Shown here: one piece after another, positions 15,430-61,662 of the stretch | Layout: each line of letters starts with the position of its first letter | Position numbering within the stretch: the first letter of the stretch is position 1 | Origin: an uncultured Planctomycetia bacterium | GTDB lineage: Bacteria; Omnitrophota; Gorgyraeia; Duberdicusellales; 4484-171 | Reading direction: 5' to 3' | Length of the DNA: 64,000 nt | Assembly: GCA_964483625.1 (NCBI GenBank) | Contig: CAZABB010000001.1 | Coordinates: 3,222-67,221 of the forward strand | Notes under the pieces: model-generated | Told to the model about the DNA's origin: nothing | Databases searched by the model: none | What the model saw: only the letters and a program-made list of their open reading frames with translations | Position numbers and translations under genes: made by a program

Positions 15430-15481
15430 AACTGTATTTCAAATAGTCGTTATATATAGAAGGAAAAATTTACCGTACATC

Positions 15482-18966: not shown

Positions 18967-19022
18967 CCAGAGGACATTCAATCCATGGCGGCGGGATTTT
19001 TCATTCTACCGGAATATCAGAC

Positions 19023-23889: not shown

Positions 23890-24797
23890 CGCAAGGTAAA
23901 AATACCGTCCGGGTTTCAATCATTATTCCCCTGTTCAATGGCGAAAACACCATTGAAGAATGTATGTCTTCTCTACGTTCCTTACAGTATCCGCATCCGT
24001 ACGAAATCATCATTATAGATAATAATTCCAGCGACAGGTCGGTGGAGAAAATCAAACCGTATGTGAATGGACATACCGTCCGGCTATATTCGGAAAGAAA
24101 ACAGGGATCCTATGCGGCGCGCAACAAAGGCATCCGGCTGGCTCGCGGCGCATTCATCGCTTTTACCGACGCCGATTGCATTGTGCAAAAAGACTGGCTC
24201 ACCAATATCACCAAAAGACTGGAAGAACATACGGTAGGAGGGGTGGGAGGAAAAATCGTACCATACCGGCCCGAAACGGACCTGGAACGGTTTGGTGACA
24301 AGTACATATTCAACGAAGAAAAGAAACCATTTCCTTACCTCGGTACCGGAAACTGCGTTTTTCGCAAAGATGTCCTGTGGGAACTGCACTTATTTGACGA
24401 ACGATTTCTCTCGGGAGGCGACGTCGATCTCAGTTTAAGGATTCAGAAACAGGGGTATCGATTATTGTATCAGCCCGACGCGGTAATTTGCCATAAACAC
24501 CGGACATCCCTGAAAGCCTTTTTCTGTCAATATTATACGTACGGTAAAGGGTGGAAGATATTGAGAGGGAAATGGGGAACTCAGAGCTCATTATTTCGTA
24601 ATGTCCACGGATATCGCAAAGGCATGTATGCGCTCTATCATGTCTTACATTTTTTACTGTTATATCCCTATCTTCACCTGAGGCGAAAAAAGGTTACGTG
24701 GGAAGATAGAATGAATGTATTTTCCCAACTTTACCTGGCGATACAGGATGGAGCATTTTTTCTGGGATACACGTATATTCCCGTATCCCGTCCGTAA
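23883..24797 (+). CDS. GT2 family glycosyltransferase
   Basis: VSIIIPLFNGENTI..EIIIIDNNSSDRS..FTDADC. Confidence 0.85.
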   Translation: MVAQGKNTVRVSIIIPLFNGENTIEECMSSLRSLQYPHPYEIIIIDNNSSDRSVEKIKPYVNGHTVRLYSERKQGSYAARNKGIRLARGAFIAFTDADCIVQKDWLTNITKRLEEHTVGGVGGKIVPYRPETDLERFGDKYIFNEEKKPFPYLGTGNCVFRKDVLWELHLFDERFLSGGDVDLSLRIQKQGYRLLYQPDAVICHKHRTSLKAFFCQYYTYGKGWKILRGKWGTQSSLFRNVHGYRKGMYALYHVLHFLLLYPYLHLRRKKVTWEDRMNVFSQLYLAIQDGAFFLGYTYIPVSRP

Positions 24798-24804
24798 AAC
24801 CCTG

Positions 24805-25914
24805 ATGATGAAGAACTATCGCCACATGATCCAGCGCATAAAAATCATCGGAGGAATTCTCAATTCACGCATTCCCTTTACCGGACCGATGGCCTGCATG
24901 ATCGCTCTTACCGATGCGTGTAATATCCAATGTTCTTTCTGTCCGGTCCATTCAAGTTTTCTGACCGAAGAGCGAAAGAATAAGTTTAGGGATTCATTTG
25001 GCCTGGAGGAATTAAAATCACTCCTGCGTCAGTTAAGAGATCTTCACGTATGTAAATTATTTTTTGCCGGGCGGGGAGAACCGTTTTCCTATCCTTACAT
25101 AAGAGAAACTCTGGATTATTGTCGGCATCTGGGCTTAGAGACCAATTTTACTACCAATGGGACATTGATTGACTCTTCTCTAATGCAGGATCTTATTCGG
25201 CTGGGAGTAAAAGAATTGAATGTGAGCATATGCGCAGGGAGTCCGGAACATTATGTACGGGTCCATCCTCATACCAGCGAAGAAACATTCTTGCGCATAA
25301 AAGGATGGCTGCATGACAGCCTAAGGTTCAAACGACGCCCCCGCATCGTCATTACGAATATTATATGCAACAAGAATAGCGATGATATCGAGAACATGGT
25401 TCGACTTGCCAAAGAAGCAAGGGCCCAGGAAGTACGGTTTGAACCGGTTCAGCTATTCGACTACATCAAAGAAGACCTGCGATTATCGCCGCCGCAAAAG
25501 TCAACCCTTTTAGCATCATCACCGCGCATTTCCACCCTTCTGAGAACATACCGGTTAAAAAGCAACTTCTCCGACATGTTAAAAAGACTAACCCATGACG
25601 TGCGGGGAGAAGGAAGATACAATTATCTGGCGGGAAAAATATCGTGTTACCAGGGATGGTTAACGTGTGGGATATTAGCATCGGGAGACGTCATATTTTG
25701 CTGTGAATCAACCCGCCACATCATCGGAAACATCTACCGGTCTCCCTTTAAGGAAATATGGTTCTCAGCCGAATATAACACATTGCGACACAAAGCGCTC
25801 ACTCAGGGCTGCATCTATCCGGACAAACGGCAAACAAGCTGTTTTTACGCACTACAAAATTTAATGCTGCACAGATGTCTCCGCGTGCCGGAAGCCGTAC
25901 GAAAAAATGTTTGA
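24805..25914 (+). CDS. radical SAM enzyme with SPASM domain
   Basis: ALTDACNIQCSFC and GRGEPF motifs. C-terminal region CYQGWLTCG...CC..GNIYRSPFKEIW...C..C. The start is trimmed to the MMKNYRHM Met pair; the longest ORF runs from 24715. Confidence 0.85.
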   Translation: MMKNYRHMIQRIKIIGGILNSRIPFTGPMACMIALTDACNIQCSFCPVHSSFLTEERKNKFRDSFGLEELKSLLRQLRDLHVCKLFFAGRGEPFSYPYIRETLDYCRHLGLETNFTTNGTLIDSSLMQDLIRLGVKELNVSICAGSPEHYVRVHPHTSEETFLRIKGWLHDSLRFKRRPRIVITNIICNKNSDDIENMVRLAKEARAQEVRFEPVQLFDYIKEDLRLSPPQKSTLLASSPRISTLLRTYRLKSNFSDMLKRLTHDVRGEGRYNYLAGKISCYQGWLTCGILASGDVIFCCESTRHIIGNIYRSPFKEIWFSAEYNTLRHKALTQGCIYPDKRQTSCFYALQNLMLHRCLRVPEAVRKNV

Positions 25915-26705: not shown

Positions 26706-27806
26706 TCACTGTAAACGCAGCGTCGTACTCAAACTGACGGGACACCGGCGACAATAATTCATTCTTCTTTTACGGAAATGACGGAAGCGCGCCGAATGCC
26801 AAATGGTATCCAAGTCTTCATCAAATAAATTGCCGAGAACCGGATGTTGTGTGAAATCAACGGCCGGACAAGGAGCAACGTCTCCATTCTTTAAAATCAA
26901 CGCAAAGGAGCAGGGGAGGTCACAGAATAGAGAAGGCTCTATATGCTGTAAATACACACCTCGGGAAAAACTTTCGGGAGAACTCAGGCGGAAATCGTAT
27001 ATATTTTTAATCTTCTTGGTATTAAACTTCCTGTCCCGCGGCTTTATCCCGGGAAAATCCCGGAGACAAACATGAATCTGTTCGCTTATATGCGTACGAA
27101 AATGCCGGATTTGCTGCATATCGAGAAGGAAACGATCTTGTCCAAAATCGTATTCAATATAATCGATATCCAGAGAATCACAGCCCAGCGTTTTCGCCAG
27201 CGTAATCATCCCGGGGACATCCTGAAAGGTATACCGGGAGAGGATCATCCGTATGCCGACTTCGATATTTTGCCCCGGAAGCCTCTTCAACCGAACCAGA
27301 GCCTTGATGCCATGCACAGCTTTATCATACAACCCCACACATCTTCGCAGATCATCGTGGATATCCCTATGAGGGCTATCGATAGAGACAATAAACCGAT
27401 CCACACCTTTTTCCACTAAACACTGCGCCAAAACCTCATCAAGTAAACCGCCGTTGGTATTGAGCGTAACGTCCATGGCTCGCTCCTTTATTTCCTCTAC
27501 TATGACGGAAAGCTTTTCGTACAACAACGGCTCGCCGCCGCTTAGAATAACTTCTTTACACTTCAAGCGTACTAACGCATCAAATAACTTAACATAATCA
27601 TTAATCTCCATTTTCCTGTCCGCATTCTTACTGCGATAATGCTCTCTTCGTGCCGTACACGCCCCGCAACGGGCAAAACAATTCTCCTCTATTTTTAAAA
27701 CGACCCTTTTTAACTTCGATTGACAACACTTCCATTTCACATTCGTTATCTTAGAATGAGAGAAAAGAACGCGCATTGTATGCAGACGAGATAGGATACT
27801 GTTCAT
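26706..27806 (-). CDS. radical SAM enzyme with SPASM domain
   Basis: CFARCGAC (CxxxCxxC) and SGGEPL motifs. C-terminal region CDLPCS...PC...GNLFDEDLDTIW...CRRCPVS. Confidence 0.85.
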   Translation of the reverse strand: MNSILSRLHTMRVLFSHSKITNVKWKCCQSKLKRVVLKIEENCFARCGACTARREHYRSKNADRKMEINDYVKLFDALVRLKCKEVILSGGEPLLYEKLSVIVEEIKERAMDVTLNTNGGLLDEVLAQCLVEKGVDRFIVSIDSPHRDIHDDLRRCVGLYDKAVHGIKALVRLKRLPGQNIEVGIRMILSRYTFQDVPGMITLAKTLGCDSLDIDYIEYDFGQDRFLLDMQQIRHFRTHISEQIHVCLRDFPGIKPRDRKFNTKKIKNIYDFRLSSPESFSRGVYLQHIEPSLFCDLPCSFALILKNGDVAPCPAVDFTQHPVLGNLFDEDLDTIWHSARFRHFRKRRMNYCRRCPVSLSTTLRLQ

Positions 27807-30622: not shown

Positions 30623-31658
30623 CGGACAGAAAATTTCTATTCCGGCACCGCACCGTTTCCCGGGCCTGAGTAATATTCCAGCCGTAGGCCCGTAGATACG
30701 CGGTTATTTTTGATCCTTCCTGAGTATACCCCCTCGCCTGGAATGTTTTTTCTTCTCTGCCTTCTATCCATATCTTTATACGGTATAATCGATATTTTAC
30801 CATACCGTATATTTTACCCAGATCATATATCCATATCCAACACATACACAGGATACTGTGATTCTTTATCAGGAATCGCATCCTGTTACGAGTCACATAA
30901 TAAAATCTATTTTCCTCCTCCTCTTCGGAGCTGAAGGTGTGAAGCGCTCCGGTACGAGAAGTGATGAAATTCCTATACCCTCTTCTCTGCAACCTATAGC
31001 CGAAATCTTTATCTTCGGAAGGATATACGAAATACGGATCAAATCCTCCCGCTTCTAAAACTCTCTTCTTTTCTACCATGCAATTACTCGTGGGGACATA
31101 CGTGCATTGCCGATTCGTTTCCCCGCGTCCGCCTTCCACATTAACATATGTATCCAAGGAATCTCCTCCCCGCGTTACATTGACGCCATGAACCTGAAGA
31201 AGGGCCCCGGCGACGAAAAACGCCTCCCCTCCGACTTCAGCCGTACTATGATGTTTACGCAACCACGCCACCATATTCTCTATCATCTCTGTGCAGATCA
31301 ATTCCGTATCACTGTCAAGGAAAAGAAGGTATTGACCGCGGGACTTTATGATCCCCCTGTTTCGCGAATAGGAGGGACCGTACCTGTATTTATTCCTGTA
31401 TATGACAACTTCAGAGAAGGCCGCTGCGATATATTGGGACGTCCCGTCTTCGCTATGGTCATCAACCACTATGATCTCGCTCTGCCGATACGACTGCTGT
31501 TTCACAGAAGCGATACACCTGCCCAGCAGATACTTTCTATTTAATGTAACGACGATAACCGAAACCAATCCTTCAACGTATTCCATACACGAATCTCCTC
31601 CCCGTAAAACCGGAAACGATTCCTTATCAGCGAATGAAGATATACTCCCTGGGCACAA
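30573..31658 (-). CDS. GT2 family glycosyltransferase
   Basis: VSVIVVTLNRKYLL..EIIVVDDHSEDGT..LFLDSDT. The likely start is the internal Met at 31586 (MEYVEGL). Confidence 0.85.
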   Translation of the reverse strand: MCPGSISSFADKESFPVLRGGDSCMEYVEGLVSVIVVTLNRKYLLGRCIASVKQQSYRQSEIIVVDDHSEDGTSQYIAAAFSEVVIYRNKYRYGPSYSRNRGIIKSRGQYLLFLDSDTELICTEMIENMVAWLRKHHSTAEVGGEAFFVAGALLQVHGVNVTRGGDSLDTYVNVEGGRGETNRQCTYVPTSNCMVEKKRVLEAGGFDPYFVYPSEDKDFGYRLQRRGYRNFITSRTGALHTFSSEEEEENRFYYVTRNRMRFLIKNHSILCMCWIWIYDLGKIYGMVKYRLYRIKIWIEGREEKTFQARGYTQEGSKITAYLRAYGWNITQARETVRCRNRNFLSDDEMRKFEKKFISLPA

Positions 31659-32662
31659 CGGCAGTTCTTTGTCTCTTTGAGGGTTAATTTTGCCGCATCC
31701 GTCCCCATTATTTCGGAAAACGTGTGAGCCTTCAAGTTGCCTACCGGACGGATGAACTCACACAGACTCATGTCTCCGTTGGGAAAAATCACTATGGTAT
31801 CCAGACGGGCCCGGCAGGCACGAGTAAGTTTTCCTTCCATCAACCTTAGATAGAGCTCATTCCTGATTCTGTCTTCTTTTGTCCAGAACCGAAATCCTGA
31901 TTTTCCGGATAAAGACTCCAGCCTCCGCAGGAAGCTTTCGTATTCGGGAATGGATAAAAACAGGTCGCGACGAAGAACGGTCAGATCACGCAACAGGGAT
32001 ATGTCGGCGTGAAAGACGGAAACATCGGCACTTTTCAAGGGAGAAAATTTTGCTCTGACCTTTTTCTTTCCCAGATAGCGAACCACGTTATCTATATCAG
32101 TATAGTTTGCCTTCATAACCGGGAAGCATACGGTAACACGGAGATTTTTATAGCGGCGTCTGAGCTGAACCAACCGGTCCAGAGTACGATCCATCTGTAA
32201 AAATGAATCACCCACTCCGCTTATTTTATTATGTACCTTTTCCGTCCCCAAGAGAGAGACCTGAATGAACATGGTATTACGGGGAAAATCTTCCATAACG
32301 TTCCTTACGGTTTCCTCAACCCGGCGAGGGAAATATCCGTTGGTATTAATTTCGATCGTTCTGGCTCCCGTGCCTGCGAGGAAATGCTTACAGATGGCAG
32401 AGATATCCGTCCGTACAAAAGGTTCGCCTCCCGTTAAACTTACGAACCTCACCCGGGGCAGCGCCCGAATTATTTTCTTAATATCTTCCCTAGGAGGATT
32501 GAACCCACCCAGCTGTTTTTGATAAAAACAGTGGATGCACCGGCAGGCACATTGATTTGTGACGTAAAAAATCACATCCTTGGGACGATGTATCCAAAAT
32601 TTCTTCAACACCTTCATCGTGAAACGAAAACACCGCAGATGCCTCTTTGGGAAAAATGACAA
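31541..32662 (-). CDS. radical SAM enzyme with SPASM-like C-terminus
   Basis: YVTNQCACRCIHC and TGGEPF motifs. C-terminal Cys cluster (LCEF..GNL..EIM...CRC). The likely start is at 32617 (MKVLKKFW). Confidence 0.8.
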   Translation of the reverse strand: MSFFPKRHLRCFRFTMKVLKKFWIHRPKDVIFYVTNQCACRCIHCFYQKQLGGFNPPREDIKKIIRALPRVRFVSLTGGEPFVRTDISAICKHFLAGTGARTIEINTNGYFPRRVEETVRNVMEDFPRNTMFIQVSLLGTEKVHNKISGVGDSFLQMDRTLDRLVQLRRRYKNLRVTVCFPVMKANYTDIDNVVRYLGKKKVRAKFSPLKSADVSVFHADISLLRDLTVLRRDLFLSIPEYESFLRRLESLSGKSGFRFWTKEDRIRNELYLRLMEGKLTRACRARLDTIVIFPNGDMSLCEFIRPVGNLKAHTFSEIMGTDAAKLTLKETKNCRCAQGVYLHSLIRNRFRFYGEEIRVWNTLKDWFRLSSLH

Positions 32663-33901
32663 TTATTTTAATGCCAGCTTACAACAACGATGACAGACCG
32701 AAAAAAAATCATTCTTGGCAAGAACGTTTCTGAATAATCTCATGTTCTTGCCTCCCCATATATCTTTAAGCGATTCCTGCACGGCATTGCCTATTTTGAA
32801 CGAAATACCGCAAGGGTACACGTCTCCGCCGGGAGAAATTTCCAGCTCCCGCCAGGGGACACGGCATTTTCCGGCGTACGAGACGCTATCGTAATTATAA
32901 TAATATTCATGTATTTCCTCTTCTCCTATTTCGGGACGGAAGAATATTCTTTTATCATACTTATTTTTTATTGTGACGACGATACGAGCCAACTTTCGCG
33001 TATCTATCTGAACTTCCTCAACGCTTACGTTGTCTCTCGTAACAACTTTCCCAAAATATTGATGTGTGACAAGACAAAACTGTTTCTGGGCGTTACGGGT
33101 AGTAAATCCAAGGTGCTCGAAATAAATATCCACCGCCGGATGGGATCGTCGTATCTGGCACACGAAATCCTCCAACGTCTCGTAATTTTTATCCGAAATA
33201 ACGCAGTTCACCGAGATATTGCCGACGGGAACTCCGGATTCGAGCAACGCCCGCATAGTATCGGTCGTTTTCGCGAAAGCCCCTTTATACCCTCTGATAC
33301 GATCATGCACATCGGAGAGGCCGTCTAAGGAAAGAGAAAACCGTATATCCTTCAGAGTGGCAATTCGGGAAATCATTGACCGGGACAGAAGAGTCCCGTT
33401 GGTCCGAACCGTAATCGGGAAACCTGATACACTCAAAAACCGCAAGATTTCTCCCATATCCTCACGACAAAACGGTTCTCCTCCCGTAATCGTCACGGTA
33501 GGCAACGCGAAAGAAAACCGGTATTCGTGTCTTATGCGGGAAAATACTTTCTTCATCATTCCCAGGGGCAACTCTGTAGCGACAATGGTTCGGGAAGAGC
33601 GACTGTTGACGAAAGGGCACATGGCGCAATGGAGGTTGCACCGATAGGTAACTCGTAATATTATCGAGGAAGGCAAACCGCCGATGCTCTTATTCCAGAG
33701 GACAGAAATTTCTTTTCGCGAGAAGGGCTTTACGAGTTTTACGTTCACGGTATATTTACCGATACACGGCCGGTAGAAAAGAACGCCGTACTCATCCGCA
33801 TGAGGTTTTCTCGATAATATAATCTTCCAATACCATACAATCCATCCCGCTTTCCTGAAAACAACGCACTGCATCGTCGGGAGTACAGACGATCGGTTCA
33901 T
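32663..33901 (-). CDS. radical SAM enzyme with SPASM domain
   Basis: LRVTYRCNLHCAMC and TGGEPF motifs. C-terminal region CRVPW..PCG...GNAVQESLKDIW...CHRCC. The longest ORF overlaps the upstream gene by 110 nt. A GTG start at 33748 would remove the overlap, but no good SD was seen. Confidence 0.8.
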   Translation of the reverse strand: MNRSSVLPTMQCVVFRKAGWIVWYWKIILSRKPHADEYGVLFYRPCIGKYTVNVKLVKPFSRKEISVLWNKSIGGLPSSIILRVTYRCNLHCAMCPFVNSRSSRTIVATELPLGMMKKVFSRIRHEYRFSFALPTVTITGGEPFCREDMGEILRFLSVSGFPITVRTNGTLLSRSMISRIATLKDIRFSLSLDGLSDVHDRIRGYKGAFAKTTDTMRALLESGVPVGNISVNCVISDKNYETLEDFVCQIRRSHPAVDIYFEHLGFTTRNAQKQFCLVTHQYFGKVVTRDNVSVEEVQIDTRKLARIVVTIKNKYDKRIFFRPEIGEEEIHEYYYNYDSVSYAGKCRVPWRELEISPGGDVYPCGISFKIGNAVQESLKDIWGGKNMRLFRNVLAKNDFFSVCHRCCKLALK

Positions 33902-35483
33902 CTCTCAGATTGAAAGACGTGTTTAACACAAGAGGAACCCCGCTCAAACGGAAAAACGCGTCTATCAAACCCCAGAACCGAGGCGACGTTCCCCGACTCA
34001 CCGTCTGAACCCGTGCCGTTCCATCGACATGAGTGACCGCAGGGATGACCGGCCGTTTTTCCGACAAAACGCTTGCCGTCAACAACATAAACGGTGAATT
34101 CTGTTGTATGGCAAAATAATCCGTTGCCTTTTCTTCCAATACCGCAGGCGCATACGGCCGGAAGGGTTCCCGTTTCTTTACTTTTTCATTCAACAGTCTT
34201 TTCATGTGAGGATGGCAGGGATTTGCCAGAATTGATCTGTTTCCCAATGCCCGGGGACCGAACTCCATTCTCCCCTGGAACCAACCTACGATTTTATTCT
34301 TGACTAATAATCTGGCGACATATTCCTCCCGAGTCGTTTTCTCCATCTCTCTAAAAGCGATATCGTGAGAAGACAAAACCCTCCGTATCTGACGTGATGA
34401 ATACCGCGGCCCCAGATAGGCATGGTTCATGATGTGTTTCCTTCGCCCGCCGAAAAGATTATAGTAGAGGTAAGACGCCGCTCCCACGGCGCCGCCGCTA
34501 TCCCCGGCCGCCGGCTGTATAAACACCTTTTTGAACGGAGTCTGTTCAAGGATTTTCCCATTCAGAACACAATTGAGAAAGATTCCGCCGGAAAGGCACA
34601 GAGAATCTATTTTTATCTCCTCGTAAAGATTGCGGATAATCTTTATCATTGTCTCCTCCAGAAATACCTGCAGACTCGCCGCGATATCACAATGACGTTC
34701 TGTAATCGCATCTTCCGGTAAACGTTCGGGGCCGAAGACCTCTGTGAATTTTTTGCCGTACATTTTCGTACCCCGGACAAAATTGAAATACCGCAGGTCC
34801 AGCCGGAAACTACCGTCGTCTTTTGCTCTTACCATGTTTCTGAATGTATCGGTATAGCACGGTTTCCCATAGGCGGCCAACCCCATTACTTTACCTTCTC
34901 CGCGCAATGCGGCAAATCCCAGATATGTGGTTACCGTCGTATACAGCAGACCCAAAGAGTGAGGATACTTTATTTCTCTCAGAATCTTAATCTGGTTGCC
35001 TCGTCCGACGCCGCAGGTCGTCGTCGTCCATTCACCTACCGCATCAGCGGTAAGAATAGCGGCCTCAGCAAAAGGTGACGGGAAAAAACTACTGGCGGCG
35101 TGAGACAGATGATGTTTGACAAATCTGACTTCTCGTTCGAAGCCGAATTCTTTTTTTAGCATGAGCGGTAATGCCAACCTGTCCTGCAACCACGCCGGCA
35201 TGGTATTGAGAAATCTCTCCAGTGAGAACGGATAGGCATGTATATGGTCGACGACCGTCCGATAAAATTTCAAGAAGGGTTTTTCGTAGAATGCTACACA
35301 GTCGATATCCGAGAAGCCTATGTTTCCTTCCTGAATACAGTAGTGTATCGCCTGCGTGGGGAAATCGGAAGAATTCTTGTTGCGGTTAAACCTCTCCTCC
35401 TGGGCGGCCGTAACGATTTCTCCCTCTCTCAGGAGACAAGCAGCCGCATCGTGATAATGACATGAAATACCTAAAATATTCAT
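33792..35483 (-). CDS. carbamoyltransferase, NodU/CmcH/TobZ family (Kae1-like + YrdC-like domains)
   Basis: N-terminus MNILGISCHYHDAAACLL..EERFNR (ASKHA fold, HxH metal motif). The ~560 aa length and C-terminal domain are typical of O-carbamoyltransferases. Confidence 0.85.
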   Translation of the reverse strand: MNILGISCHYHDAAACLLREGEIVTAAQEERFNRNKNSSDFPTQAIHYCIQEGNIGFSDIDCVAFYEKPFLKFYRTVVDHIHAYPFSLERFLNTMPAWLQDRLALPLMLKKEFGFEREVRFVKHHLSHAASSFFPSPFAEAAILTADAVGEWTTTTCGVGRGNQIKILREIKYPHSLGLLYTTVTTYLGFAALRGEGKVMGLAAYGKPCYTDTFRNMVRAKDDGSFRLDLRYFNFVRGTKMYGKKFTEVFGPERLPEDAITERHCDIAASLQVFLEETMIKIIRNLYEEIKIDSLCLSGGIFLNCVLNGKILEQTPFKKVFIQPAAGDSGGAVGAASYLYYNLFGGRRKHIMNHAYLGPRYSSRQIRRVLSSHDIAFREMEKTTREEYVARLLVKNKIVGWFQGRMEFGPRALGNRSILANPCHPHMKRLLNEKVKKREPFRPYAPAVLEEKATDYFAIQQNSPFMLLTASVLSEKRPVIPAVTHVDGTARVQTVSRGTSPRFWGLIDAFFRLSGVPLVLNTSFNLRDEPIVCTPDDAVRCFQESGMDCMVLEDYIIEKTSCG

Positions 35484-35898: not shown

Positions 35899-36912
35899 CT
35901 AGCTCTCCCCCGATAACGGCGGATATCCTTCGCAGCCTATTCCTTTCAGTACGTTTCTGACGGTTTCTTCTCCGAAATTCATTGCTAATTTCTTCTCCGC
36001 TTCCTCCCGGCTGAACTCTCCCAGCCGTATGCGTTTACTCAGTTCGATATGGTAATGCGTGTATCCATAATATTTCATCGTCAGGTATACACTCACAAAA
36101 TTCATAAGACAATTCGTCGAACCCGCCGGATAACTGAGACGGAGCGCCCTCCACTGAAGTTCTGACTGAATGCAGACGATGATCTTCTCTTCATCCCACG
36201 GTAGATACCAATGAGGTGAGATCTCTCTCCCTTTGAACTTCTTTCTCCCCCTGCATATTGCCTCCTTCATGCTAAGAGGAAAATTTTTATAGCGGGAGGT
36301 CTTTCGCATATGCCGGGCGACGAAATCGGCCGTTGCCTGCGACATGGAACGGTACTCCTCACCACTTTCACCTCTTTCTATAGTTTGACCTTTTGTCCAG
36401 CCCCCGATTATCAACGGGATTTTATACTTTGCCGCAAGATCATACGTACTCTGCATATACCAGATCGCACACACGTGACAAACAGGCGCTTTCGTCTGTG
36501 TGCGTATCATACGGGAAAATATATCTTTCATGGAATCGCTTCTGAAATAGATCCAATCGACTCCCAGGATACGCACGGCTCGTTTTACGTTCTCCAGGGC
36601 TTCCTCGTTTTCAAATCCATGGTCAAACGTAAAGGCGAGAGGATTCATCTTATATCTTTTTTTCATACAGTAAAGACTGAACACGCTGTCTTTGCCGCCG
36701 CTGCACATGACCAGACAATCATAAGCGGCGCGGCCTTTGTATTTTTTGAGCAGTTTCAGTAATTGCGATTCTTGAAAATCAATGCGGGATCGCTGAGATT
36801 TCATGTGTTCAAATTCACGGCATATATTACATACCCCCGCCTCATTCAGCCGGATGTCCGGCGTATATTCCGGTAATACACATTTTTTACACCATTTGAC
36901 ATGCCTATTCAT
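35899..36912 (-). CDS. N-acetyl sugar amidotransferase (WbpG/PseA-like PP-loop ATPase)
   Basis: N-terminal zinc-ribbon (CKKC...CNIC) and PP-loop motif CSGGKDS, in a glycan-cluster context. Confidence 0.75.
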   Translation of the reverse strand: MNRHVKWCKKCVLPEYTPDIRLNEAGVCNICREFEHMKSQRSRIDFQESQLLKLLKKYKGRAAYDCLVMCSGGKDSVFSLYCMKKRYKMNPLAFTFDHGFENEEALENVKRAVRILGVDWIYFRSDSMKDIFSRMIRTQTKAPVCHVCAIWYMQSTYDLAAKYKIPLIIGGWTKGQTIERGESGEEYRSMSQATADFVARHMRKTSRYKNFPLSMKEAICRGRKKFKGREISPHWYLPWDEEKIIVCIQSELQWRALRLSYPAGSTNCLMNFVSVYLTMKYYGYTHYHIELSKRIRLGEFSREEAEKKLAMNFGEETVRNVLKGIGCEGYPPLSGES

Positions 36913-38572
36913 ACTGCTTCTTTTTCCCGGACAAGAGCTTTAGTTCTAAAATCTTTGCAGTCACATTCCTAGCCATAATTCCATACCCCCGGCCGTTACA
37001 ATGATTGTCGAACACAAAATAGTCTTTGGGGCGTTCCCCTTGGTTCCAAAGTTCCTGAAAGGTACTTTCCTGATCGACCAAAGGCACGTCGTATTCCTTA
37101 GCGACCTCTCTCAAGATCCCGTTAATGGCATGGAAGACCGGGTAATTCTGCAGGACCAATTTCACTTTTTCCCGGCGGCATATCTCTACGAACTCTCCCA
37201 AATCAGAACGGATCCAACGACGAACGATCTCATCTTCATCTTGCCTCCGGAATGACCTGACATAAGCCGCCGCGTCCGGAGAGAGACGTTCGAGAAAAGC
37301 TCTCATCTCATCATTATCTGTTTCTCTTGTGGTGTAAATTCTCAGAATACGATAATAGTTCAACCGGTTCTCAGGATCGGCTTCTATCCCTTTTTTAAAA
37401 TAGGCGACTGCCTTCCCGTAATCTCCCTTTTCTTCATAGATTTGCCCCAAATACGTATAACTGCTGCCTTCGGAAGGATCCGCCTTCAAAGCCCGTATGA
37501 ACCACCGTATTGCCTTTTCATTATCTCCCTGCTCCCTGAATACCCGAGCCAGTTCAACGTAATTCTGAGCGTTGCCGGGATCATTACGTATTCCTTTGTG
37601 AAACCACTGACAAGCCCCCTTATAATCTTCCTGATCTTTATGTACCCAACCGAGACCGCTGTACAGATTCCCGTTACCGGAGTCTATATGCAATCCTTTT
37701 TTGAACCACATTTCTGCAATATCATAACGCCCCTGGTCTCTATATACCCATCCCAGCCCGTTATAATTACGACTATTGCCGGGATCGATGTCTATTCCTT
37801 TACGAAACCATTCGATTGCTTTCCGATAATCTTCCTGATCTTTACATACCCAGCCAAGACCGTTGTAGAGATTGCTATCTCCAGGACTTACCGCCAAACG
37901 GTCTCTAAACCATATCCTGGCCTTTTGATACCTACCTTCTTCGTGATATCTCCATCCATCACGCGAACCAGAAAGATCACGTTGCCCCGCTGGATTACAA
38001 CGGCGAGAGATCCGACCGACTGCTTTGGGAATTTTATCTTTTTCTGCGACTCTATCCCGGACTATCCTGCCTTCTTTATTATACCATAACAGCTTTACCA
38101 GCCTATATATTCTGATGCGGTAAAGCTGATCGTTAATCCAGGAACCGAGAGTCTGCCTCTTCTCGTATCTGCGATACCCCCAATAATTCCAATAGTTGGC
38201 GCCGCCGGCCAGAAGGACAATAACGTCCGGCCTCAGAGTATCTATGGTACGTGGGAGTTCATGTAAAATCTGAGCAGTATTGTGCGCGGAAACCCCTTTA
38301 TTCAACACCTGAATTTCTTTATGCGGAAAGTAGGTCGTAATGATGCTGCTTGCCTGCCGCGGCATGGTTTGAGACGAAGAAGCTCCGACCCCGTAGGTAA
38401 AAGAATCTCCCAAAAACACGATAGTATAGGCCGTCTTCCCGCCCTGAGTCACCTCAGGAGAGAGAGAGGGTCTGGCCCGGCGATGGGCATCTCCTACCAG
38501 ACGCAATCCTATTTCCCACAGGAAAACAGCAATACATACCCCAAGAAAAAGTACTTTTAACCGCTCCTTCAT
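36905..38572 (-). CDS. membrane-anchored SGNH hydrolase with ~6 TPR repeats inserted within the catalytic domain
   Basis: N-terminal TM helix. SGNH block I IVFLGDSFTYG and block III region (LLAGGANYW). Then ~6 x 34-aa TPR units (GLGWVyrDQGrYdiAemWFkKGl...). C-terminal block V FVFDNHCNGRGY (DxxH). Confidence 0.7.
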   Translation of the reverse strand: MKERLKVLFLGVCIAVFLWEIGLRLVGDAHRRARPSLSPEVTQGGKTAYTIVFLGDSFTYGVGASSSQTMPRQASSIITTYFPHKEIQVLNKGVSAHNTAQILHELPRTIDTLRPDVIVLLAGGANYWNYWGYRRYEKRQTLGSWINDQLYRIRIYRLVKLLWYNKEGRIVRDRVAEKDKIPKAVGRISRRCNPAGQRDLSGSRDGWRYHEEGRYQKARIWFRDRLAVSPGDSNLYNGLGWVCKDQEDYRKAIEWFRKGIDIDPGNSRNYNGLGWVYRDQGRYDIAEMWFKKGLHIDSGNGNLYSGLGWVHKDQEDYKGACQWFHKGIRNDPGNAQNYVELARVFREQGDNEKAIRWFIRALKADPSEGSSYTYLGQIYEEKGDYGKAVAYFKKGIEADPENRLNYYRILRIYTTRETDNDEMRAFLERLSPDAAAYVRSFRRQDEDEIVRRWIRSDLGEFVEICRREKVKLVLQNYPVFHAINGILREVAKEYDVPLVDQESTFQELWNQGERPKDYFVFDNHCNGRGYGIMARNVTAKILELKLLSGKKKQYE

Positions 38573-38601: not shown

Positions 38602-39354
38602 TTATTCGTGATCCCCCTCCTCACGTTTCCTACGAAACCATCCCGGTAACATCAAAGCCTTAAAGTACTCAACATACACTCTGGGAGTCAGTTTCGACGC
38701 TCCCTCATGACGCATATCAATCATATAGGGAATATTTTGTATAGATGTGTGCCGGGGCATTACTTTTAAAAAATCGAAAAGGATTTTGTACCCCCGGGGA
38801 CGAAACAAACGATCCCCTTCGCTTTCAAACACGATCTTTTTCCAGAAAGACGTGCGCACGCCGAAAAAACCGCTGAGCACATCCAGAAAAAACAAACGTT
38901 TATAGTGTGCGCATAAACACATTCTTCCCAAAGCGTTTCCCAGAAGAGAAATCGCTCTGCGCTGCACAGGCCAATACCCCTGAATGGATGTCCGAGAAGC
39001 GATTGTCAATTGCATCCCGCTCTCCAGAGCAGTCACAATCTCTTTTACTTTTTCCGGGGGATGCTGTCTATCAGCGTCCATGACGATAAAATACTTTGTC
39101 GCCACATGCGCGCTGGCAGCTAGTACGCTTGCCGTCAGGCCATGTATTCTCTCCCGTTTCCGGTCGAGAAAAAAAATATTTTCGCAGTCTTTCTGAAAAG
39201 AACGAACAATTGCACCGGTACCATCAACTGAACCATCGTCACTTACCATCAGGCAGATTCCCGGATAATACTGTTTCAATGCTATCATGACCCGGCCGAT
39301 ATTATGTTCTTCGTTTAATGTGGGAAGGATGATTGTGAAATCAGAATGGCCCAT
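38602..39354 (-). CDS. GT2 glycosyltransferase, polyprenyl-phosphate sugar synthase-like (DPM1/ArnC/GtrB-type)
   Basis: FTIILPTLNEEHNI...LMVSDDGSVDGT...IVMDADRQHPP. The short (~250 aa) soluble GT-A form is typical of dolichol/undecaprenyl-phosphate sugar synthases. Confidence 0.75.
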   Translation of the reverse strand: MGHSDFTIILPTLNEEHNIGRVMIALKQYYPGICLMVSDDGSVDGTGAIVRSFQKDCENIFFLDRKRERIHGLTASVLAASAHVATKYFIVMDADRQHPPEKVKEIVTALESGMQLTIASRTSIQGYWPVQRRAISLLGNALGRMCLCAHYKRLFFLDVLSGFFGVRTSFWKKIVFESEGDRLFRPRGYKILFDFLKVMPRHTSIQNIPYMIDMRHEGASKLTPRVYVEYFKALMLPGWFRRKREEGDHE

Positions 39355-39401
39355 AAGAAAGCTGCCCCCTCTGGAAATATTCAAGAAGCGGAATCATCGG
39401 T

Positions 39402-48412: not shown

Positions 48413-48681
48413 TGGACATGATTGTTTCTCTTTTTATCGCGATATACGCGTTCTTTCTTCCCGGCTACCTGGTCACAAAAACCAGTCGTATCGGCAATGG
48501 TCTGTTTACTACGATAATTCTCAGCATTGCCATAAGCATAACACTGATTCCTATTATCGCCTTCTCGCTCGCAATGATTTTTCATACGGTCATACATTAC
48601 GCAACAGTTACGATCGCGGCAACTCTCGTCAACCTGATCTGCATCGGCCACCGCTATCTTAAAAAGGTCAAAACACAATGA
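48412..48681 (+). CDS. small membrane protein (89 aa, 3 predicted TM helices)
   Basis: Start and stop codons overlap both neighbours. Almost entirely hydrophobic (IVSLFIAIYAFFLPGYLV...IILSIAISITLIPIIAFSLAMIF...). Confidence 0.5.
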   Translation: MDMIVSLFIAIYAFFLPGYLVTKTSRIGNGLFTTIILSIAISITLIPIIAFSLAMIFHTVIHYATVTIAATLVNLICIGHRYLKKVKTQ

Positions 48682-50342
48682 ATATTCTCGCTCTGCATGA
48701 AGACAGCAATGCCAATATTACCTTCCTCGCGAATACCGAAATCGTGTTTTCGGTTGCCGAAGAACGGTTTACCCGTAAAAAACATCAGGGAGGATTCCCT
48801 CGGGAATCGCTTGCCTACCTGTTCAAAAAATACGATCTTGCGCCGAACGATATCGATGTTATCGTCTGCGGGAACCGTTATCATCCCTTACCCCGTCTCC
48901 TGGGACCTTATTTCCCCAGTCATGAGCACGCTTTTTTAGGATGGGGACAAAAAGTATCTCTTTACTACCAACATGCCCTCTCTAAAAGCCTTCTCCTCCG
49001 CTCTGCCGTAGAAAAACTTAACCATTGTCTCCTTACCCATAAGTTCAAAAGAAGCATATTTCTCGTCGACCATCACACCGCTCATGCCTATGCGACATAT
49101 CTTACTTCAGGCTTTTCCGAAGCACTTATTATCAGCGCCGACAACTATGGAGACGGGGTGGCTGCGGCGGTATTTACCGGTAAAGAGGGAACATGCACTA
49201 TGCTCTACTCTTCTTCGGCACTCCATTCTCCGGGACAGTTCTATGGTGAACTGGCTCAGATTCTCGGATTTCACCCTCTCATGGCCGGAAAAATGACCGG
49301 TCTCTCGGCCTACGGAGACCCCGGCCGGGCGTATCCGCTTGTAAAAGAATTGTTCGGGTTGACGCCCGACAAGAAAGATTTTGTATTGCCGTCTCTCTTC
49401 TTTAAATCACCGAACCGGGGCATTTTTCAGAAACTGCGGGCGTATAAAAAAGAAGATGTTGCTGCGGCGGCACAAAGAAGGTTTGAAGAAGTAATCGTCT
49501 CCTACGCCAGAGAAGCGTTGAGGACGACCGGCTTAAGAAAAATTGCTCTTGCCGGCGGTATTTTCGGTAACGTCTGTCTCAATAAGAAAATCGCTGAGCT
49601 TGAAGAAGTAGATGAGATCTTTATCCATCCGGGGATGAGTGATCAGGGAATCAGCCTGGGAGCGGGTTTGGCATACTTGGCTCAAGAAAAAGCCATACAG
49701 CCTTTTCGGATAGAAAACGTGTACTGGGGACCCCAGTACAATGGCGACCAAATCAAACAGACACTTACCCAACAGAATGTTGCTTTCCTCTATGACCCTC
49801 ACATCGAACAGACCGTGGCTGATCTCCTGGCTCGCGGTAAGGTGGTAGCTCGGTTTAACGGACGAACCGAATACGGTCCGCGGGCCCTGGGCAACCGCAG
49901 TATCCTCTACCGGACGACGGACGGAACCGTAAATGACTGGCTGAACCGAAAACTGCGCCGTTCTGCATTCATGCCGTTTGCTCCCGTAACTCTGGAGGAA
50001 GAAGCTCAACGGTGTTACAACCATATCCCTAAGATAGCTTATACGGCAAAATTCATGACGATTGCCTGTGAATGCACCGAATGGATGAAATCGGTATCGC
50101 CGGGAGTGGTGCATATCGATTCAACCGCCCGGCCGCAGATTCTTTCGCAAACCGATAACCCTTCCTATTACGCGATCCTTAAAGAATATCATCGTCTGAC
50201 CGGCATTCCCAGTCTGATCAATACCAGCTTTAATATGCACCACGAACCGATTGTCAACACTCCGGCTGAGGCGCTCGAGGCATTTTTACAAGCCGGAATT
50301 GACTACCTGGCGATCGGCAACTATCTTGTGGAAAAACAATAA
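48678..50342 (+). CDS. carbamoyltransferase, NodU/CmcH/TobZ family
   Basis: MNILALHEDSNANITFL..EERFTRKKH. Length 554 aa. Same architecture as the proteins at 33792 and 54126. Confidence 0.85.
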   Translation: MNILALHEDSNANITFLANTEIVFSVAEERFTRKKHQGGFPRESLAYLFKKYDLAPNDIDVIVCGNRYHPLPRLLGPYFPSHEHAFLGWGQKVSLYYQHALSKSLLLRSAVEKLNHCLLTHKFKRSIFLVDHHTAHAYATYLTSGFSEALIISADNYGDGVAAAVFTGKEGTCTMLYSSSALHSPGQFYGELAQILGFHPLMAGKMTGLSAYGDPGRAYPLVKELFGLTPDKKDFVLPSLFFKSPNRGIFQKLRAYKKEDVAAAAQRRFEEVIVSYAREALRTTGLRKIALAGGIFGNVCLNKKIAELEEVDEIFIHPGMSDQGISLGAGLAYLAQEKAIQPFRIENVYWGPQYNGDQIKQTLTQQNVAFLYDPHIEQTVADLLARGKVVARFNGRTEYGPRALGNRSILYRTTDGTVNDWLNRKLRRSAFMPFAPVTLEEEAQRCYNHIPKIAYTAKFMTIACECTEWMKSVSPGVVHIDSTARPQILSQTDNPSYYAILKEYHRLTGIPSLINTSFNMHHEPIVNTPAEALEAFLQAGIDYLAIGNYLVEKQ

Positions 50343-51745: not shown

Positions 51746-51749
51746 ATGA

Positions 51750-52895
51750 TCAGAATCCGCCTAAAGAAGACACCCAGTTAGGACTCACTTCACACCCCAG
51801 CCAGCACTTCCCGCAATGAACGACCTTGCGCAATTTATTTTTCGCGATCGGTTTATTCAAGATATCCGAATATGATTCCCGTTTAACATTTCCCAAAACT
51901 TCGGTATCATAGCTACAAGTGATTATATCACCATTGGGATGAAGACGGAAATGCGTAAATAAATTCATACAGCGATGCTGCGGCATACGTCCCGTCTGAA
52001 GCACATTCATTTGTCCCTTTAGATAGTGAGCCAGAATGATGCGTTCAAGGATATGTCGCCACGAGCCGCTTCCCTTTACCCCAAGAGAAAGGATATCCGT
52101 AGTAAGATTTTGGCGAATATAATCCCGAACCGGAGCGCTGAATTCTATCAGACCATAATCAGCCCGTTCGATTCCTCCCTCTTTCAACCCGACAAAACCG
52201 CGGTAGTCTACGTCCAAATCATCGGCAAGTTTTTTCACCCGAGGGATTTCATGTACATTCTCCGGAAAAACAGTCTGATTGACGGCAAGGAAAAGTTTTT
52301 TCCGGCTGAAACGGCTCCTGAGACGCCGGAGAGTATCTACGGCACGGGAGAAACTTCCTTCCTTCCCGCGTAACGCATCGTGTGTCGTGCTCATGCCATC
52401 GATACTGACTTTGAGATCGAGTGAAACCCCTCGCTTCTTTAACAACATGATCTTCCCGACAATGTCCTCGGTAGCATATCCGTTGGTTGTAATATGAAAG
52501 ATGCGCGGTTTGATGCGGGAATGAAACGCTAAAAGGATTTCGGTTAAATCTTCTTTCAAGAAAGGTTCACCTCCCGTGATCACCACGGCATCAATATTAT
52601 GTAACATATTGTCTTCAAGCATGTTACGAATATCCTTCTCCCGGAGTTCTTCATGATTTTTTTCGGCAGGAGAGCGCCAAGCTCCGCAATGTTTACAGGC
52701 GAGATTACAGCGGAACGTAACCGCATAATTAACCAGAAACGGCCGGGACGGTCTATTCAAGCCGCGGCGCACATTCGCACGAAGAAAACGAAAGAGATAA
52801 GAAGCCATCATACGCATTTTTTTCTCAGCAGATAGAGAACAATCCTTTTTAAACGCCGGGGGGGAAGATAAAACAGTAAAGGAGCAACGCAACAA
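51750..52895 (-). CDS. radical SAM enzyme with SPASM domain
   Basis: VTFRCNLACKHC and TGGEPFL motifs. C-terminal region CSYDTEVLGNV...ILN...CGKCWLGC. The start is probably at 52817 (MRMMASYLF). Confidence 0.85.
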   Translation of the reverse strand: MLRCSFTVLSSPPAFKKDCSLSAEKKMRMMASYLFRFLRANVRRGLNRPSRPFLVNYAVTFRCNLACKHCGAWRSPAEKNHEELREKDIRNMLEDNMLHNIDAVVITGGEPFLKEDLTEILLAFHSRIKPRIFHITTNGYATEDIVGKIMLLKKRGVSLDLKVSIDGMSTTHDALRGKEGSFSRAVDTLRRLRSRFSRKKLFLAVNQTVFPENVHEIPRVKKLADDLDVDYRGFVGLKEGGIERADYGLIEFSAPVRDYIRQNLTTDILSLGVKGSGSWRHILERIILAHYLKGQMNVLQTGRMPQHRCMNLFTHFRLHPNGDIITCSYDTEVLGNVKRESYSDILNKPIAKNKLRKVVHCGKCWLGCEVSPNWVSSLGGF

Positions 52896-61609: not shown

Positions 61610-61662
61610 GTACCCCTCCTTTTATCTTATACAATCCTCTTTTCAATATCTCATCTCAACTC

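What the first reader, a model, noticed from the sequence alone, without database searches (positions are those of the whole stretch)
36905..38572. SGNH hydrolase with a ~200-aa TPR array inserted between catalytic blocks
Blocks I-III (GDSFTYG ... LLAGGANYW) and the catalytic DxxH block V (FVFDNHCNGRGY) are separated by ~6 canonical TPR repeats. These repeats have the same consensus as the giant TPR proteins at 58292-63414 (GLGWV.rDQG.Y..A..WF.KG). A protein-interaction array nested inside an esterase or acyltransferase fold is unusual. It suggests the enzyme docks onto the TPR scaffold proteins or is regulated by them.
Basis: seen in the sequence. Interest (0 to 1): 0.55.

Follow-up and report, generated by a model that had tools for sequence, protein, structure and literature searches.

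The report
SGNH esterase with nested TPR array
This gene encodes a membrane-anchored esterase- or acyltransferase-type (SGNH) enzyme with six protein-binding TPR repeats inserted in the middle of its catalytic domain; the design is real, belongs to a large undescribed family in uncultivated bacteria, and sits in a conserved sugar-modifying gene module.

Summary
ORF 36905-38572 (minus strand, 555 aa) has an N-terminal transmembrane helix, then SGNH blocks I-III, a linker, six TPR repeats of exactly 34 residues plus a capping unit (residues 197-434), and then the rest of the SGNH domain with block V.

The two SGNH parts make one complete fold. This rests on two Pfam stretches, a TPR-excised family profile that matches solved SGNH hydrolases on both sides, an AlphaFold model, and Foldseek matches of a short-insert relative to TesA and Axe2 (target-normalised TM 0.75-0.82).

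It is not a one-off or a fusion artefact. At least 209 loci in species-representative genomes and 265 protein clusters (50% identity) belong to the family. The insert always sits at the same site and varies from about 0 to 10 TPRs.

Block V is D-x-H, not DxxH, as in CE20 esterases, which also carry a nested domain.

The closest homologues sit directly beside a NodU-like carbamoyltransferase and a WbuX-like amidotransferase, as in this window, inside a very large glycan-tailoring island.

I found no support for docking onto the giant TPR proteins. The shared repeat consensus is real but generic, and large TPR proteins are not conserved neighbours.

Most likely this is a glycan O-acyl esterase or transferase held in an assembly complex by its TPRs. 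It is a new variant of known kinds (TviD, CE20).

The parts
36905..38572 (-). Complete ORF of 555 aa: SGNH hydrolase with a nested TPR array.
   Evidence: ORF list. A 100% identical protein (P0001) is in public data. Family alignment A1.
38492..38560 (-). N-terminal hydrophobic helix (residues 5-27), predicted to be a signal anchor. It ends in the conserved E20-x-x-L23-R24 motif.
   Evidence: The AF2 model has a helix at residues 2-33. Mean Kyte-Doolittle hydropathy of the family's best 19-mer is 2.49. The ExxLR motif is present in 68 of 75 sequences. N-flank K+R exceeds C-flank K+R in 42 sequences and is lower in 17. E20 and L23 are invariant.
38177..38431 (-). First part of the SGNH domain (residues 48-132): strands beta-1 to beta-3, block I (GDS, Ser57, 38402-38410), block II (N91-K-G93, 38294-38302), block III (GGAN, Asn126, 38195-38206), and the aromatic loop NYWNYWG.
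   Evidence: Pfam Lipase_GDSL_2 matches protein residues 53-139 to profile positions 1-87. Model strands at 49-55, 87-91 and 117-121 have pLDDT around 90. Profile alignment to PDB SGNH hydrolases. Coordinates checked by translation.
37985..38176 (-). Linker (residues 133-196): the conserved helix LYRIRIYRLVKLL (R154 and L158 nearly invariant), followed by a low-confidence, variable stretch.
   Evidence: Family alignment. Model pLDDT is below 50 for residues 164-201. The helix is not amphipathic (hydrophobic moment 0.13).
37271..37984 (-). Nested TPR array (residues 197-434): six 34-residue repeats plus a degenerate capping unit.
   Evidence: Exact 34-residue register. Pfam TPR_1, TPR_2 and TPR_8 at E of about 1e-31 to 1e-33. 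Match to consensus-TPR crystal structures at E = 4.9e-77. Paired helices in the model with pLDDT 91-98.
36908..37270 (-). Second part of the SGNH domain (residues 435-555): helix alpha-C, strand beta-4 (QNYP), strand beta-5 (VPLVD), block V D522-N-H524-C (37001-37009), and the C-terminal helix.
   Evidence: The TPR-excised profile aligns this part to the C-terminal halves of 9otv, 4iyj, 3p94 and others. Model strands at 471-475 and 497-498 have pLDDT around 90. Used as a query, it finds 265 family cluster representatives at E <= 1e-10.
38602..39384 (-). Upstream co-directional GT2 glycosyltransferase, weakly similar to polyprenyl-phosphate sugar synthases (ArnC, PpgS). It ends 29 nt before the SGNH-TPR start codon.
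   Evidence: Pfam Glycos_transf_2 at 1.9e-21. Weak NCBIfam matches to ArnC and PpgS. Junction sequence.
35899..36912 (-). Downstream WbuX-like N-acetyl-sugar amidotransferase (PP-loop family). Its start codon overlaps the SGNH-TPR stop codon by 8 nt (ATGAATAG).
   Evidence: TIGR03573 at 175 bits, below the cutoff of 203. Junction sequence. Adjacent homologues scoring 214-510 bits in 8 family loci.
33792..35483 (-). NodU-like carbamoyltransferase, the conserved module partner.
   Evidence: Pfam Carbam_trans_N and Carbam_trans_C. NodU-like by NCBIfam, well below cutoff. Homologues scoring 449-848 bits on the same strand within about 10 kb in 13 of 80 family loci, directly flanking the SGNH gene or its WbuX-like neighbour in most.

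Best explanation
The gene encodes a member of a large, undescribed family of membrane-anchored SGNH (GDSL) hydrolases.

Shown here:
- The flanking segments form one complete SGNH domain. Nucleophile Ser57, oxyanion residues Gly93 and Asn126, and base His524 are all conserved.
- The acidic residue Asp522 sits in a D-x-H arrangement, not DxxH.
- The insertion site is fixed across the family, while repeat number varies.
- The gene is tightly packed with a GT2 gene (29-nt gap) and a WbuX-like amidotransferase gene (8-nt overlap), with a NodU-like carbamoyltransferase gene after them. The carbamoyltransferase plus WbuX-like part of this module recurs next to the closest homologues in Planctomycetota, Omnitrophota and Bacteroidales.

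Inferred:
- The enzyme removes or transfers an O-acyl group, most simply an acetyl ester, on a sugar of a cell-envelope glycan or its lipid-linked precursor. It would act as one tailoring step alongside carbamoylation and amidino formation.
- The N-terminal helix is a signal anchor that places the catalytic and TPR parts outside the cytoplasm, at the membrane surface.
- The TPR array is a protein-docking module that holds the catalytic domain in the glycan assembly or tailoring machinery. Precedents are the TviD TPRs, which bind the glycosyltransferase TviE, and AlgX, which binds the TPR protein AlgK.
- Hydrolase activity is favoured over acyl transfer, because no MBOAT or AT3 acyl-donor partner is encoded in the 64 kb window.
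For: Architecture and fold:
-.
- the TPR-excised profile hits SGNH structures in both halves. In 9otv, residues 3-76 and 87-177 are contiguous.
- the model of the short-insert relative P0014 matches TesA, CrmE10 and Axe2 with target-normalised TM of 0.75-0.82 over about 335 query columns.

Family size and fixed insertion site:
- at least 209 loci.
- 103 ORFs with inserts of 2-334 aa.
- inserts of about 100 aa or more are TPRs.
- 265 clusters at E <= 1e-10; 112 of 113 full-length members have inserts of at least 100 aa.

Catalytic residues: GDS in 73 of 76, His in 74 of 76.

Module and context:
- operon junctions.
- carbamoyltransferase in 13 of 80 loci and WbuX-like in 8 of 80, co-oriented and contiguous. 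The purC and PEPCK controls hit 1 of 80 each.
- glycan-tailoring context in the window and in homologues' contigs.

Topology.

No MBOAT or AT3 gene in the window.

Precedents: PMC8760489 (the TPRs of TviD bind TviE) and PMC12313940 (a nested domain in a discontinuous SGNH fold with a DxH motif).
Against: - No substrate, activity or interaction partner is shown. The function rests on family membership and gene neighbourhood.
- The positive-inside signal is modest (42 sequences against 17), so the side of the membrane is not settled. The WbuX-like and carbamoyltransferase partners are ATP-dependent cytoplasmic enzymes.
- The relative orientation of the TPR array and the catalytic domain is not determined (pTM 0.51; linker pLDDT below 50).
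- The nearest structural neighbours (TesA, lysophospholipase, acetyl-xylan esterases) do not discriminate between lipid and sugar-ester substrates.
- The module is found for the closest subfamily only. Most of the 80 loci lack it.
Confidence: 0.55

Rival explanations
1. The nested TPR array is not a protein-docking module. It would be a substrate-handling element: a superhelical groove or lid over the active site that binds the glycan chain or sets substrate specificity, like the ancillary domain of CE20 esterases. The block V Asp (D-x-H) would anchor the insert instead of polarising the His directly.
For: CE20 enzymes combine a nested ancillary domain that helps form the active site with a DxH block V and a water-mediated triad (PMC12313940). 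This family also has D-x-H, in 51 of 76 members. An aromatic-rich loop (NYWNYWG) follows block III next to the oxyanion Asn and is invariant in the core subfamily. Tandem paralogues with different repeat numbers, such as the eight in L012, fit diversification of specificity.
Against: Family members without any insert keep the same block V and the carbamoyltransferase neighbour (L073, L060), so the insert is not needed to complete the active site. TPRs are best documented as protein or peptide binders. The model gives no confident TPR-catalytic domain interface.
Confidence: 0.22
2. It is a cytoplasm-facing, membrane-associated O-acyltransferase of the TviD type. It would use acetyl-CoA or another activated acyl donor to modify the nascent glycan, and its TPRs would bind a glycosyltransferase of the cluster.
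For: TviD is an SGNH-family O-acetyltransferase whose TPR domain binds TviE and mediates membrane association (PMC8760489). The module partners here are cytoplasmic, ATP-dependent enzymes, and a GT2 gene lies immediately upstream. No MBOAT or AT3 gene is present, which would be needed for periplasmic acyl transfer.
Against: The N-terminal helix has the hydrophobicity of a true transmembrane segment, and its charge bias favours an N-in, C-out orientation. TviD has a C-terminal TPR domain, a Cys nucleophile, and lacks blocks II and III. Here blocks I-III are canonical with a Ser nucleophile.
Confidence: 0.13
3. One reading: the enzyme docks onto, or is regulated by, the giant TPR scaffold proteins at 58292-63414.
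For: The repeat consensus is shared, including the two Trp positions (GLGW...WF.K). Both sets of genes lie in the same glycan-tailoring island. The giant TPR proteins head an operon that also contains a carbamoyltransferase.
Against: Unit identity to the giant proteins (0.31-0.32) is no higher than to an unrelated database TPR protein (0.34). There is no DNA-level similarity. The genes are 20 kb apart in separate operons with purC and PEPCK between them. Large stand-alone TPR proteins occur in only 3 of 80 family loci. TPR-TPR docking is not the usual TPR binding mode (general knowledge).
Confidence: 0.07
4. It is a lipase, lysophospholipase or thioesterase acting on membrane lipids, not on a glycan.
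For: The best structural and sequence neighbours include TesA/lysophospholipase L1 and GDSL lipases. The protein is membrane-anchored. Some homologue contexts include lipid-related genes, such as LPG_synthase_TM and CTP_transf_like.
Against: Synteny with sugar-tailoring enzymes and glycosyltransferases is conserved. Acetyl-xylan and carbohydrate esterases are equally close neighbours.
Confidence: 0.08

Closest known systems
TviD, the Vi-antigen O-acetyltransferase of Salmonella Typhi (PMC8760489)
   Same: An SGNH-family catalytic domain combined with a TPR array in one polypeptide, encoded in a surface-polysaccharide locus. The TPRs mediate binding to a partner glycosyltransferase (TviE) and membrane association. 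The TPR domain is dispensable for catalysis.
   Different: The TviD TPRs are C-terminal (residues 323-831), not nested. [quoted passage not shown] It has no N-terminal transmembrane helix. Sequence homology to TviD was not tested here.
CE20 carbohydrate esterases with an ancillary domain: Fl8CE20_II, PpCE20_II, XacXaeA (PMC12313940)
   Same: A discontinuous SGNH domain split by a nested non-catalytic domain, with the two halves forming one monolithic fold. Block V is D-x-H (Asp513-x-His515). The substrates are acetylated glycans.
   Different: The inserted domain is a beta-sandwich, not a TPR array. Block I is GQSNM; here it is GDSFT. The CE20 enzymes have flanking beta-sandwich domains, are soluble polysaccharide-degrading enzymes, and have no membrane anchor.
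The AlgX-AlgK and PelA-PelB type pairs of synthase-dependent exopolysaccharide systems (PMC9734138; discussed in PMC8760489)
   Same: A periplasmic polymer-modifying enzyme (AlgX has an SGNH-like domain) works while bound to a TPR scaffold protein. Here the two functions would be fused into one chain.
   Different: In those systems the TPR scaffold is a separate protein linked to an outer-membrane porin. AlgX needs the MBOAT protein AlgI as acyl donor, and no MBOAT or AT3 gene is in this window. The query has no significant match to Pfam ALGX.
TesA/TAP (E. coli thioesterase I/lysophospholipase L1) and Axe2-type acetyl-xylan esterases: classic single-domain SGNH hydrolases
   Same: These are the best fold and profile matches for the catalytic domain: five-stranded parallel sheet, GDS nucleophile, and Gly/Asn oxyanion hole.
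   Different: They are about 180-220 aa, contiguous, with DxxH in block V, and lack the nested domain and the transmembrane anchor.

Membership tests
SGNH/GDSL hydrolase superfamily (Pfam Lipase_GDSL_2, PF13472) | Pfam model score above the gathering threshold | tested here: met
   55.3 bits against a cutoff of 32.9, in two stretches.
SGNH/GDSL hydrolase superfamily (Pfam Lipase_GDSL_2, PF13472) | Block I GDS(L) with the nucleophilic Ser | tested here: met
   G55-D56-S57. Ser is invariant in the family alignment. GDS in 73 of 76 members and GES in 3.
SGNH/GDSL hydrolase superfamily (Pfam Lipase_GDSL_2, PF13472) | Block II Gly and block III Asn (oxyanion hole) | tested here: met
   N91 and G93 are invariant. 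G123-G-A-N126 is present, with Asn in nearly all members.
SGNH/GDSL hydrolase superfamily (Pfam Lipase_GDSL_2, PF13472) | Block V DxxH (Asp three residues before the catalytic His) | tested here: not met
   His524 is present, but the motif is D522-N-H524 (D-x-H). This is the family norm, in 51 of 76 members. The same spacing occurs in active CE20 SGNH esterases, so this does not exclude membership of the superfamily.
SGNH/GDSL hydrolase superfamily (Pfam Lipase_GDSL_2, PF13472) | A single alpha/beta/alpha domain with a five-stranded parallel sheet | tested here: met
   The query model has strands at 49-55, 87-91, 117-121, 471-475 and 497-498 with pLDDT around 90. The model of short-insert relative P0014 superposes on TesA and Axe2 with target-normalised TM of 0.75-0.82. 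The query's own model could not be ranked against SGNH folds because the TPRs dominated the search.
Tetratricopeptide repeat (TPR) arrays | Tandem 34-residue helix-turn-helix units that match the TPR profiles | tested here: met
   Exact 34-residue register over six units. TPR_1, TPR_2 and TPR_8 score above their cutoffs. Match to consensus TPR crystal structures at E = 4.9e-77. Paired helices in the model.
TviD-type O-acetyltransferases | N-terminal SGNH-like domain followed by a C-terminal TPR domain; Cys-His catalytic pair | tested here: not met
   The TPRs are nested, not C-terminal, and the nucleophile is Ser in a canonical GDS. TviD features are taken from PMC8760489. Direct sequence comparison with TviD was not done.
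CE20 carbohydrate esterases | GQSNM block I, beta-sandwich flanking and ancillary domains, DxH block V | tested here: not met
   Block I is GDSFT, the insert is a TPR array, and there are no beta-sandwich domains in the model. Only the DxH spacing and the nested-domain principle are shared.
AlgX/AlgJ/PatB-type periplasmic O-acetyltransferases | Works with a membrane MBOAT or AT3 acyl-donor protein encoded nearby; match to Pfam ALGX (PF16822) | tested here: not met
   No MBOAT or AT3 domain in any ORF of at least 150 aa in the 64 kb window that was scanned. No ALGX hit for the query. One distant relative has a weak hit at 1e-4.
NCBIfam LA_2486 family SGNH/GDSL-type esterase (NF047474) | Score above the curated cutoff | tested here: not met
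   25.5 bits against a cutoff of 300.

The most novel reading that the evidence does not exclude
The nested TPR array, the D-x-H block V and the conserved trio of carbamoyltransferase, WbuX-like amidotransferase and SGNH enzyme would together define a new, widespread glycan-tailoring module of uncultivated diderm phyla. In this reading the inserted repeat array is functionally integrated with catalysis. It could be a CE20-like element that completes or gates the active site, or a molecular ruler whose repeat number (0-10) sets where on a growing envelope glycan the ester is removed or added. Tandem paralogue arrays, up to eight copies, would generate surface-glycan diversity.
Probability: 0.15. 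Interest if true: 0.7.

Novelty: new variant of a known kind. Interest (0 to 1): 0.45.

Why it matters
It defines a large protein family with hundreds of sequence clusters in Omnitrophota, Planctomycetota, Elusimicrobiota, Desulfobacterota, Bacteroidales and other groups.

Three points follow from recognising the split SGNH fold:
- It corrects the annotation.
- It adds a second, independent case, after CE20, of a domain nested in the SGNH fold together with D-x-H spacing.
- It supplies a natural series in which TPR repeat number varies at one fixed site in an enzyme. That series could be used to study how scaffold length tunes enzyme placement.

The conserved link to a NodU-like carbamoyltransferase and a WbuX-like amidotransferase gives a testable handle on envelope-glycan chemistry in phyla with almost no cultured members.

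Tried and rejected
I used the natural short-insert relative P0014 instead.
- A phmmer search with the single excised sequence against the PDB was too weak (best E = 0.16). The family profile worked.
- The first locus scan with the 13-sequence alignment failed for lack of conserved stretches. A 4-sequence core alignment worked.
- I tested the idea that the conserved linker helix LYRIRIYRLVKLL is an in-plane amphipathic membrane anchor. Its hydrophobic moment is only 0.13, so I rejected it.
- I tested the idea of recent tandem duplication of the TPR units, or gene conversion with the giant TPR genes. Tandem Repeats Finder reports nothing, and the best blastn E-value is 0.11.
- A frameshift or fusion artefact is rejected, because the layout is conserved in more than 100 ORFs.
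- My query-derived TPR HMM missed many divergent inserts. Pfam showed that these are TPRs too.
- NCBIfam gave no system-level name for any module partner.
- Literature searches for a nested TPR in an SGNH or GDSL enzyme, or for the three-gene module, found nothing specific.
Full report
**1. The observation**

Pfam finds Lipase_GDSL_2 at 55.3 bits (gathering score 32.9) in two separate stretches, together with strong TPR_1, TPR_2 and TPR_8 matches.

Reading the protein in 34-residue steps from residue 197 gives six in-register TPR units (197-400) and a degenerate capping unit (401-434).

The catalytic motifs are G55-D56-S57 (block I), N91-x-G93 (block II), G123-G-A-N126 (block III) and D522-N-H524-C (block V).

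Two details need correcting. Block V is D-x-H, not DxxH. The whole insertion between block III and the helix before strand beta-4 is about 310 residues: a linker at 133-196 and the TPRs at 197-434.

**2. Is one SGNH fold completed across the insertion?**

Four lines of evidence say yes.

- **Pfam.** It matches the GDSL model in two stretches.
- **TPR-excised family profile.** A profile built from 13 family members with the TPR region removed (A2) matches dozens of solved SGNH hydrolases at E down to 4e-14, with both halves aligned. In the targets the two parts are contiguous. In 9otv, for example, they are residues 3-76 and 87-177.
- **AlphaFold2 model of the query.** Mean pLDDT is 80.5. The segments at 48-130 and 450-545 have pLDDT around 90. 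Strands lie at 49-55, 87-91 and 117-121, then at 471-475 and 497-498, which is the order expected for the five-stranded SGNH sheet. The TPR helices have pLDDT 91-98. Only the linker at 164-201 is unreliable, and pTM is 0.51, so the orientation of the TPR array relative to the catalytic domain is undetermined.
- **A natural short-insert relative.** I therefore modelled P0014, which is 33% identical and has a 107-aa insert. All of its top PDB matches are classic SGNH hydrolases (TesA/TAP, CrmE10, AlinE4, Axe2, CE3). Target-normalised TM-scores are 0.75-0.82, over about 335 query columns for targets of about 180 residues.

**3. A large family with variable repeat number**

The full-length search found about a dozen distant proteins with the same layout and 97-99% query coverage.

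They come from Omnitrophota, Planctomycetota, Elusimicrobiota, Desulfobacterota, Bacteroidales, Nitrospiraceae, Myxococcota and other groups. The best match is only 41-44% identical.

In the 80 loci that were fetched, 103 ORFs carry both SGNH halves. The insert is always at the same site. Its length runs from 2 to 334 aa, with clusters near 136, 204 and 272 aa, which are multiples of 34. Inserts of about 100 aa or more are TPR or TPR-like arrays, by my own HMM or by Pfam.

The family-specific C-terminal half, searched against 1.84 billion cluster representatives, finds 265 proteins at E <= 1e-10 and 899 at E <= 1e-3. Of the 113 full-length hits, 112 have inserts of at least 100 aa, with a median of 189 aa.

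Among 76 strong members, GDS occurs in 73 and GES in 3. The block V His is present in 74. The Asp-His spacing is D-x-H in 51, DxxH in 12 and DH in 7.

Several loci carry tandem paralogues. L012 has eight in a row.

**4. Context**

The gene lies 29 nt downstream of a GT2 gene. Its stop codon overlaps the start codon of a WbuX-like N-acetyl-sugar amidotransferase gene by 8 nt (ATGAATAG). A NodU-like carbamoyltransferase gene follows, then three radical-SAM/SPASM genes, GT2 genes and a PMT_2-type GT-C gene.

The whole window is a glycan-tailoring island. It contains:
- at least 14 radical-SAM genes,
- three carbamoyltransferases,
- GT1, GT2 and GT4 glycosyltransferases,
- three PMT_2 proteins,
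- a Wzm/Wzt-type ABC-2 exporter,
- two polysaccharide deacetylases,
- an epimerase,
- myo-inositol-1-phosphate synthase.

It contains no MBOAT or AT3 gene.

Across the 80 family loci, carbamoyltransferase homologues scoring 449-848 bits lie on the same strand in 13 loci, contiguous with the SGNH gene (or with the WbuX-like gene beside it) in most of them. WbuX-like homologues scoring 214-510 bits complete the trio in 8 loci: L001, L004, L005, L006, L009, L017, L020 and L074. These come from Planctomycetes, Omnitrophota, Bacteroidales and unclassified bacteria. The purC and PEPCK controls hit 1 locus each.

The carbamoyltransferase link holds even for paralogues without a TPR insert (L073, L060). 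It therefore belongs to the catalytic domain, not to the TPRs.

Radical-SAM/SPASM homologues occur in 27 of 80 loci. The contigs of other homologues carry PMT_2, B12-type radical-SAM, GT4 and sulfatase genes.

**5. The giant TPR proteins**

It is not specific, however.

- The giant proteins score 20-24 bits per unit against the query's repeat HMM, like the unrelated protein P0011 at 24.8 bits.
- Mean unit identity is 0.31-0.32 to the giant proteins, 0.34 to P0011 and 0.43 to the orthologue P0002.
- There is no DNA-level similarity and no tandem DNA repeat.
- The giant genes head a separate operon 20 kb away: TPR 583 aa, TPR 1105 aa, a 743-aa polytopic membrane protein, a carbamoyltransferase and radical-SAM genes.
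- Stand-alone TPR proteins of at least 500 aa occur in only 3 of 80 family loci.

Docking onto these proteins is therefore unsupported, though not excluded.

**6. How it most likely works**

Shown: a complete, catalytically equipped SGNH domain; a hydrophobic N-terminal helix (family mean hydropathy 2.49) ending in a conserved ExxLR motif (68 of 75 sequences); and a nested TPR array.

Inferred: by the positive-inside rule the helix is a signal anchor. The N-flank is richer in Lys and Arg than the C-flank in 42 sequences and poorer in 17. This would put the enzyme at the outer face of the inner membrane.

By family and context, the enzyme would hydrolyse, or less probably transfer, an O-acyl group on an envelope glycan or its lipid-linked precursor. 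This would be one tailoring step alongside carbamoylation and amidino formation. The TPR array would tether it to the assembly machinery, as the TviD TPRs bind TviE (PMC8760489) and as AlgX works bound to the TPR protein AlgK (PMC9734138, listed).

The absence of an MBOAT or AT3 donor favours hydrolysis.

The D-x-H spacing parallels CE20 esterases. Those enzymes also carry a nested domain, and their Asp acts through a water molecule and anchors the insert (PMC12313940). Whether that applies here cannot be decided without coordinates.

**7. Comparison and novelty**

An SGNH domain combined with TPRs is known in TviD, where the TPRs are C-terminal. A domain nested in an SGNH fold is known in CE20, where the insert is a beta-sandwich. 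A TPR array nested in an SGNH fold, the family that carries it, and its link to a carbamoyltransferase and a WbuX-like amidotransferase were not found in the searchable literature. Public records name these proteins, if at all, as "tetratricopeptide repeat protein" or "hypothetical protein".

I rate it a new variant of a known kind, of moderate interest. The architecture is solid, and the function is inferred.

**8. Limits**

- No coordinates were available for inspection.
- The neighbourhood enrichment lacks a genome-wide background.
- The organism is not in the reference set. Shared gene order of PEPCK, purC and the SGNH-TPR gene with L035 suggests a relative of Omnitrophota.

Noticed in passing
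window 6469-7515 (-): A second, TPR-less SGNH relative of 348 aa. It scores 35 bits against the family N-half HMM and 30.8 bits against Pfam Lipase_GDSL_2, just below the gathering score. It lies next to an NAD-dependent epimerase gene and radical-SAM genes.
   Followed up: partly
whole window, e.g. 601-5359, 13789-18966, 20680-21738, 24715-25914, 26706-27806, 31541-33901, 50345-54208: An unusually dense set of at least 14 radical-SAM genes, both B12-binding and SPASM types, is interleaved with glycosyltransferases, three NodU-like carbamoyltransferases (33792-35483, 48678-50342, 54126-55880), three PMT_2 GT-C proteins, two polysaccharide deacetylases and a Wzm/Wzt-type exporter (18963-20634). 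No curated family reaches its cutoff. What glycan or lipid this island makes is unknown.
   Followed up: partly
window 55890-58121 (-): A 743-aa polytopic membrane protein with no Pfam hit. It sits between the 1105-aa TPR protein and a carbamoyltransferase, and could be a divergent GT-C or polymerase-like protein.
   Followed up: no
L012 (Desulfocapsaceae MAG, contig CAZMFP010000003.1), ORFs starting at 2, 1081, 2508, 3975, 5558, 7054, 8837 and 10307: Eight tandem paralogues of the SGNH-TPR family in a row, with inserts of 180-240 aa. This is a striking local expansion.
   Followed up: no
window 38492-38560 (-), protein residues 5-27: An ExxLR motif (E20, L23, R24) at the end of the N-terminal transmembrane helix is conserved in 68 of 75 family sequences. 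A charged pair inside or at the edge of a membrane anchor is unexplained.
   Followed up: partly
L035 (Omnitrophota MAG STB_130), 3922-11388: This locus shares the order PEPCK, purC and then a family member with the window (purC 59% identical). The window's organism is probably related to Omnitrophota. The SGNH-TPR protein itself is much more diverged (about 25% identity) than the housekeeping genes.
   Followed up: partly
window 8386-9513 (-): A myo-inositol-1-phosphate synthase gene lies inside the glycan island, which hints at an inositol-containing glycolipid or head group.
   Followed up: no
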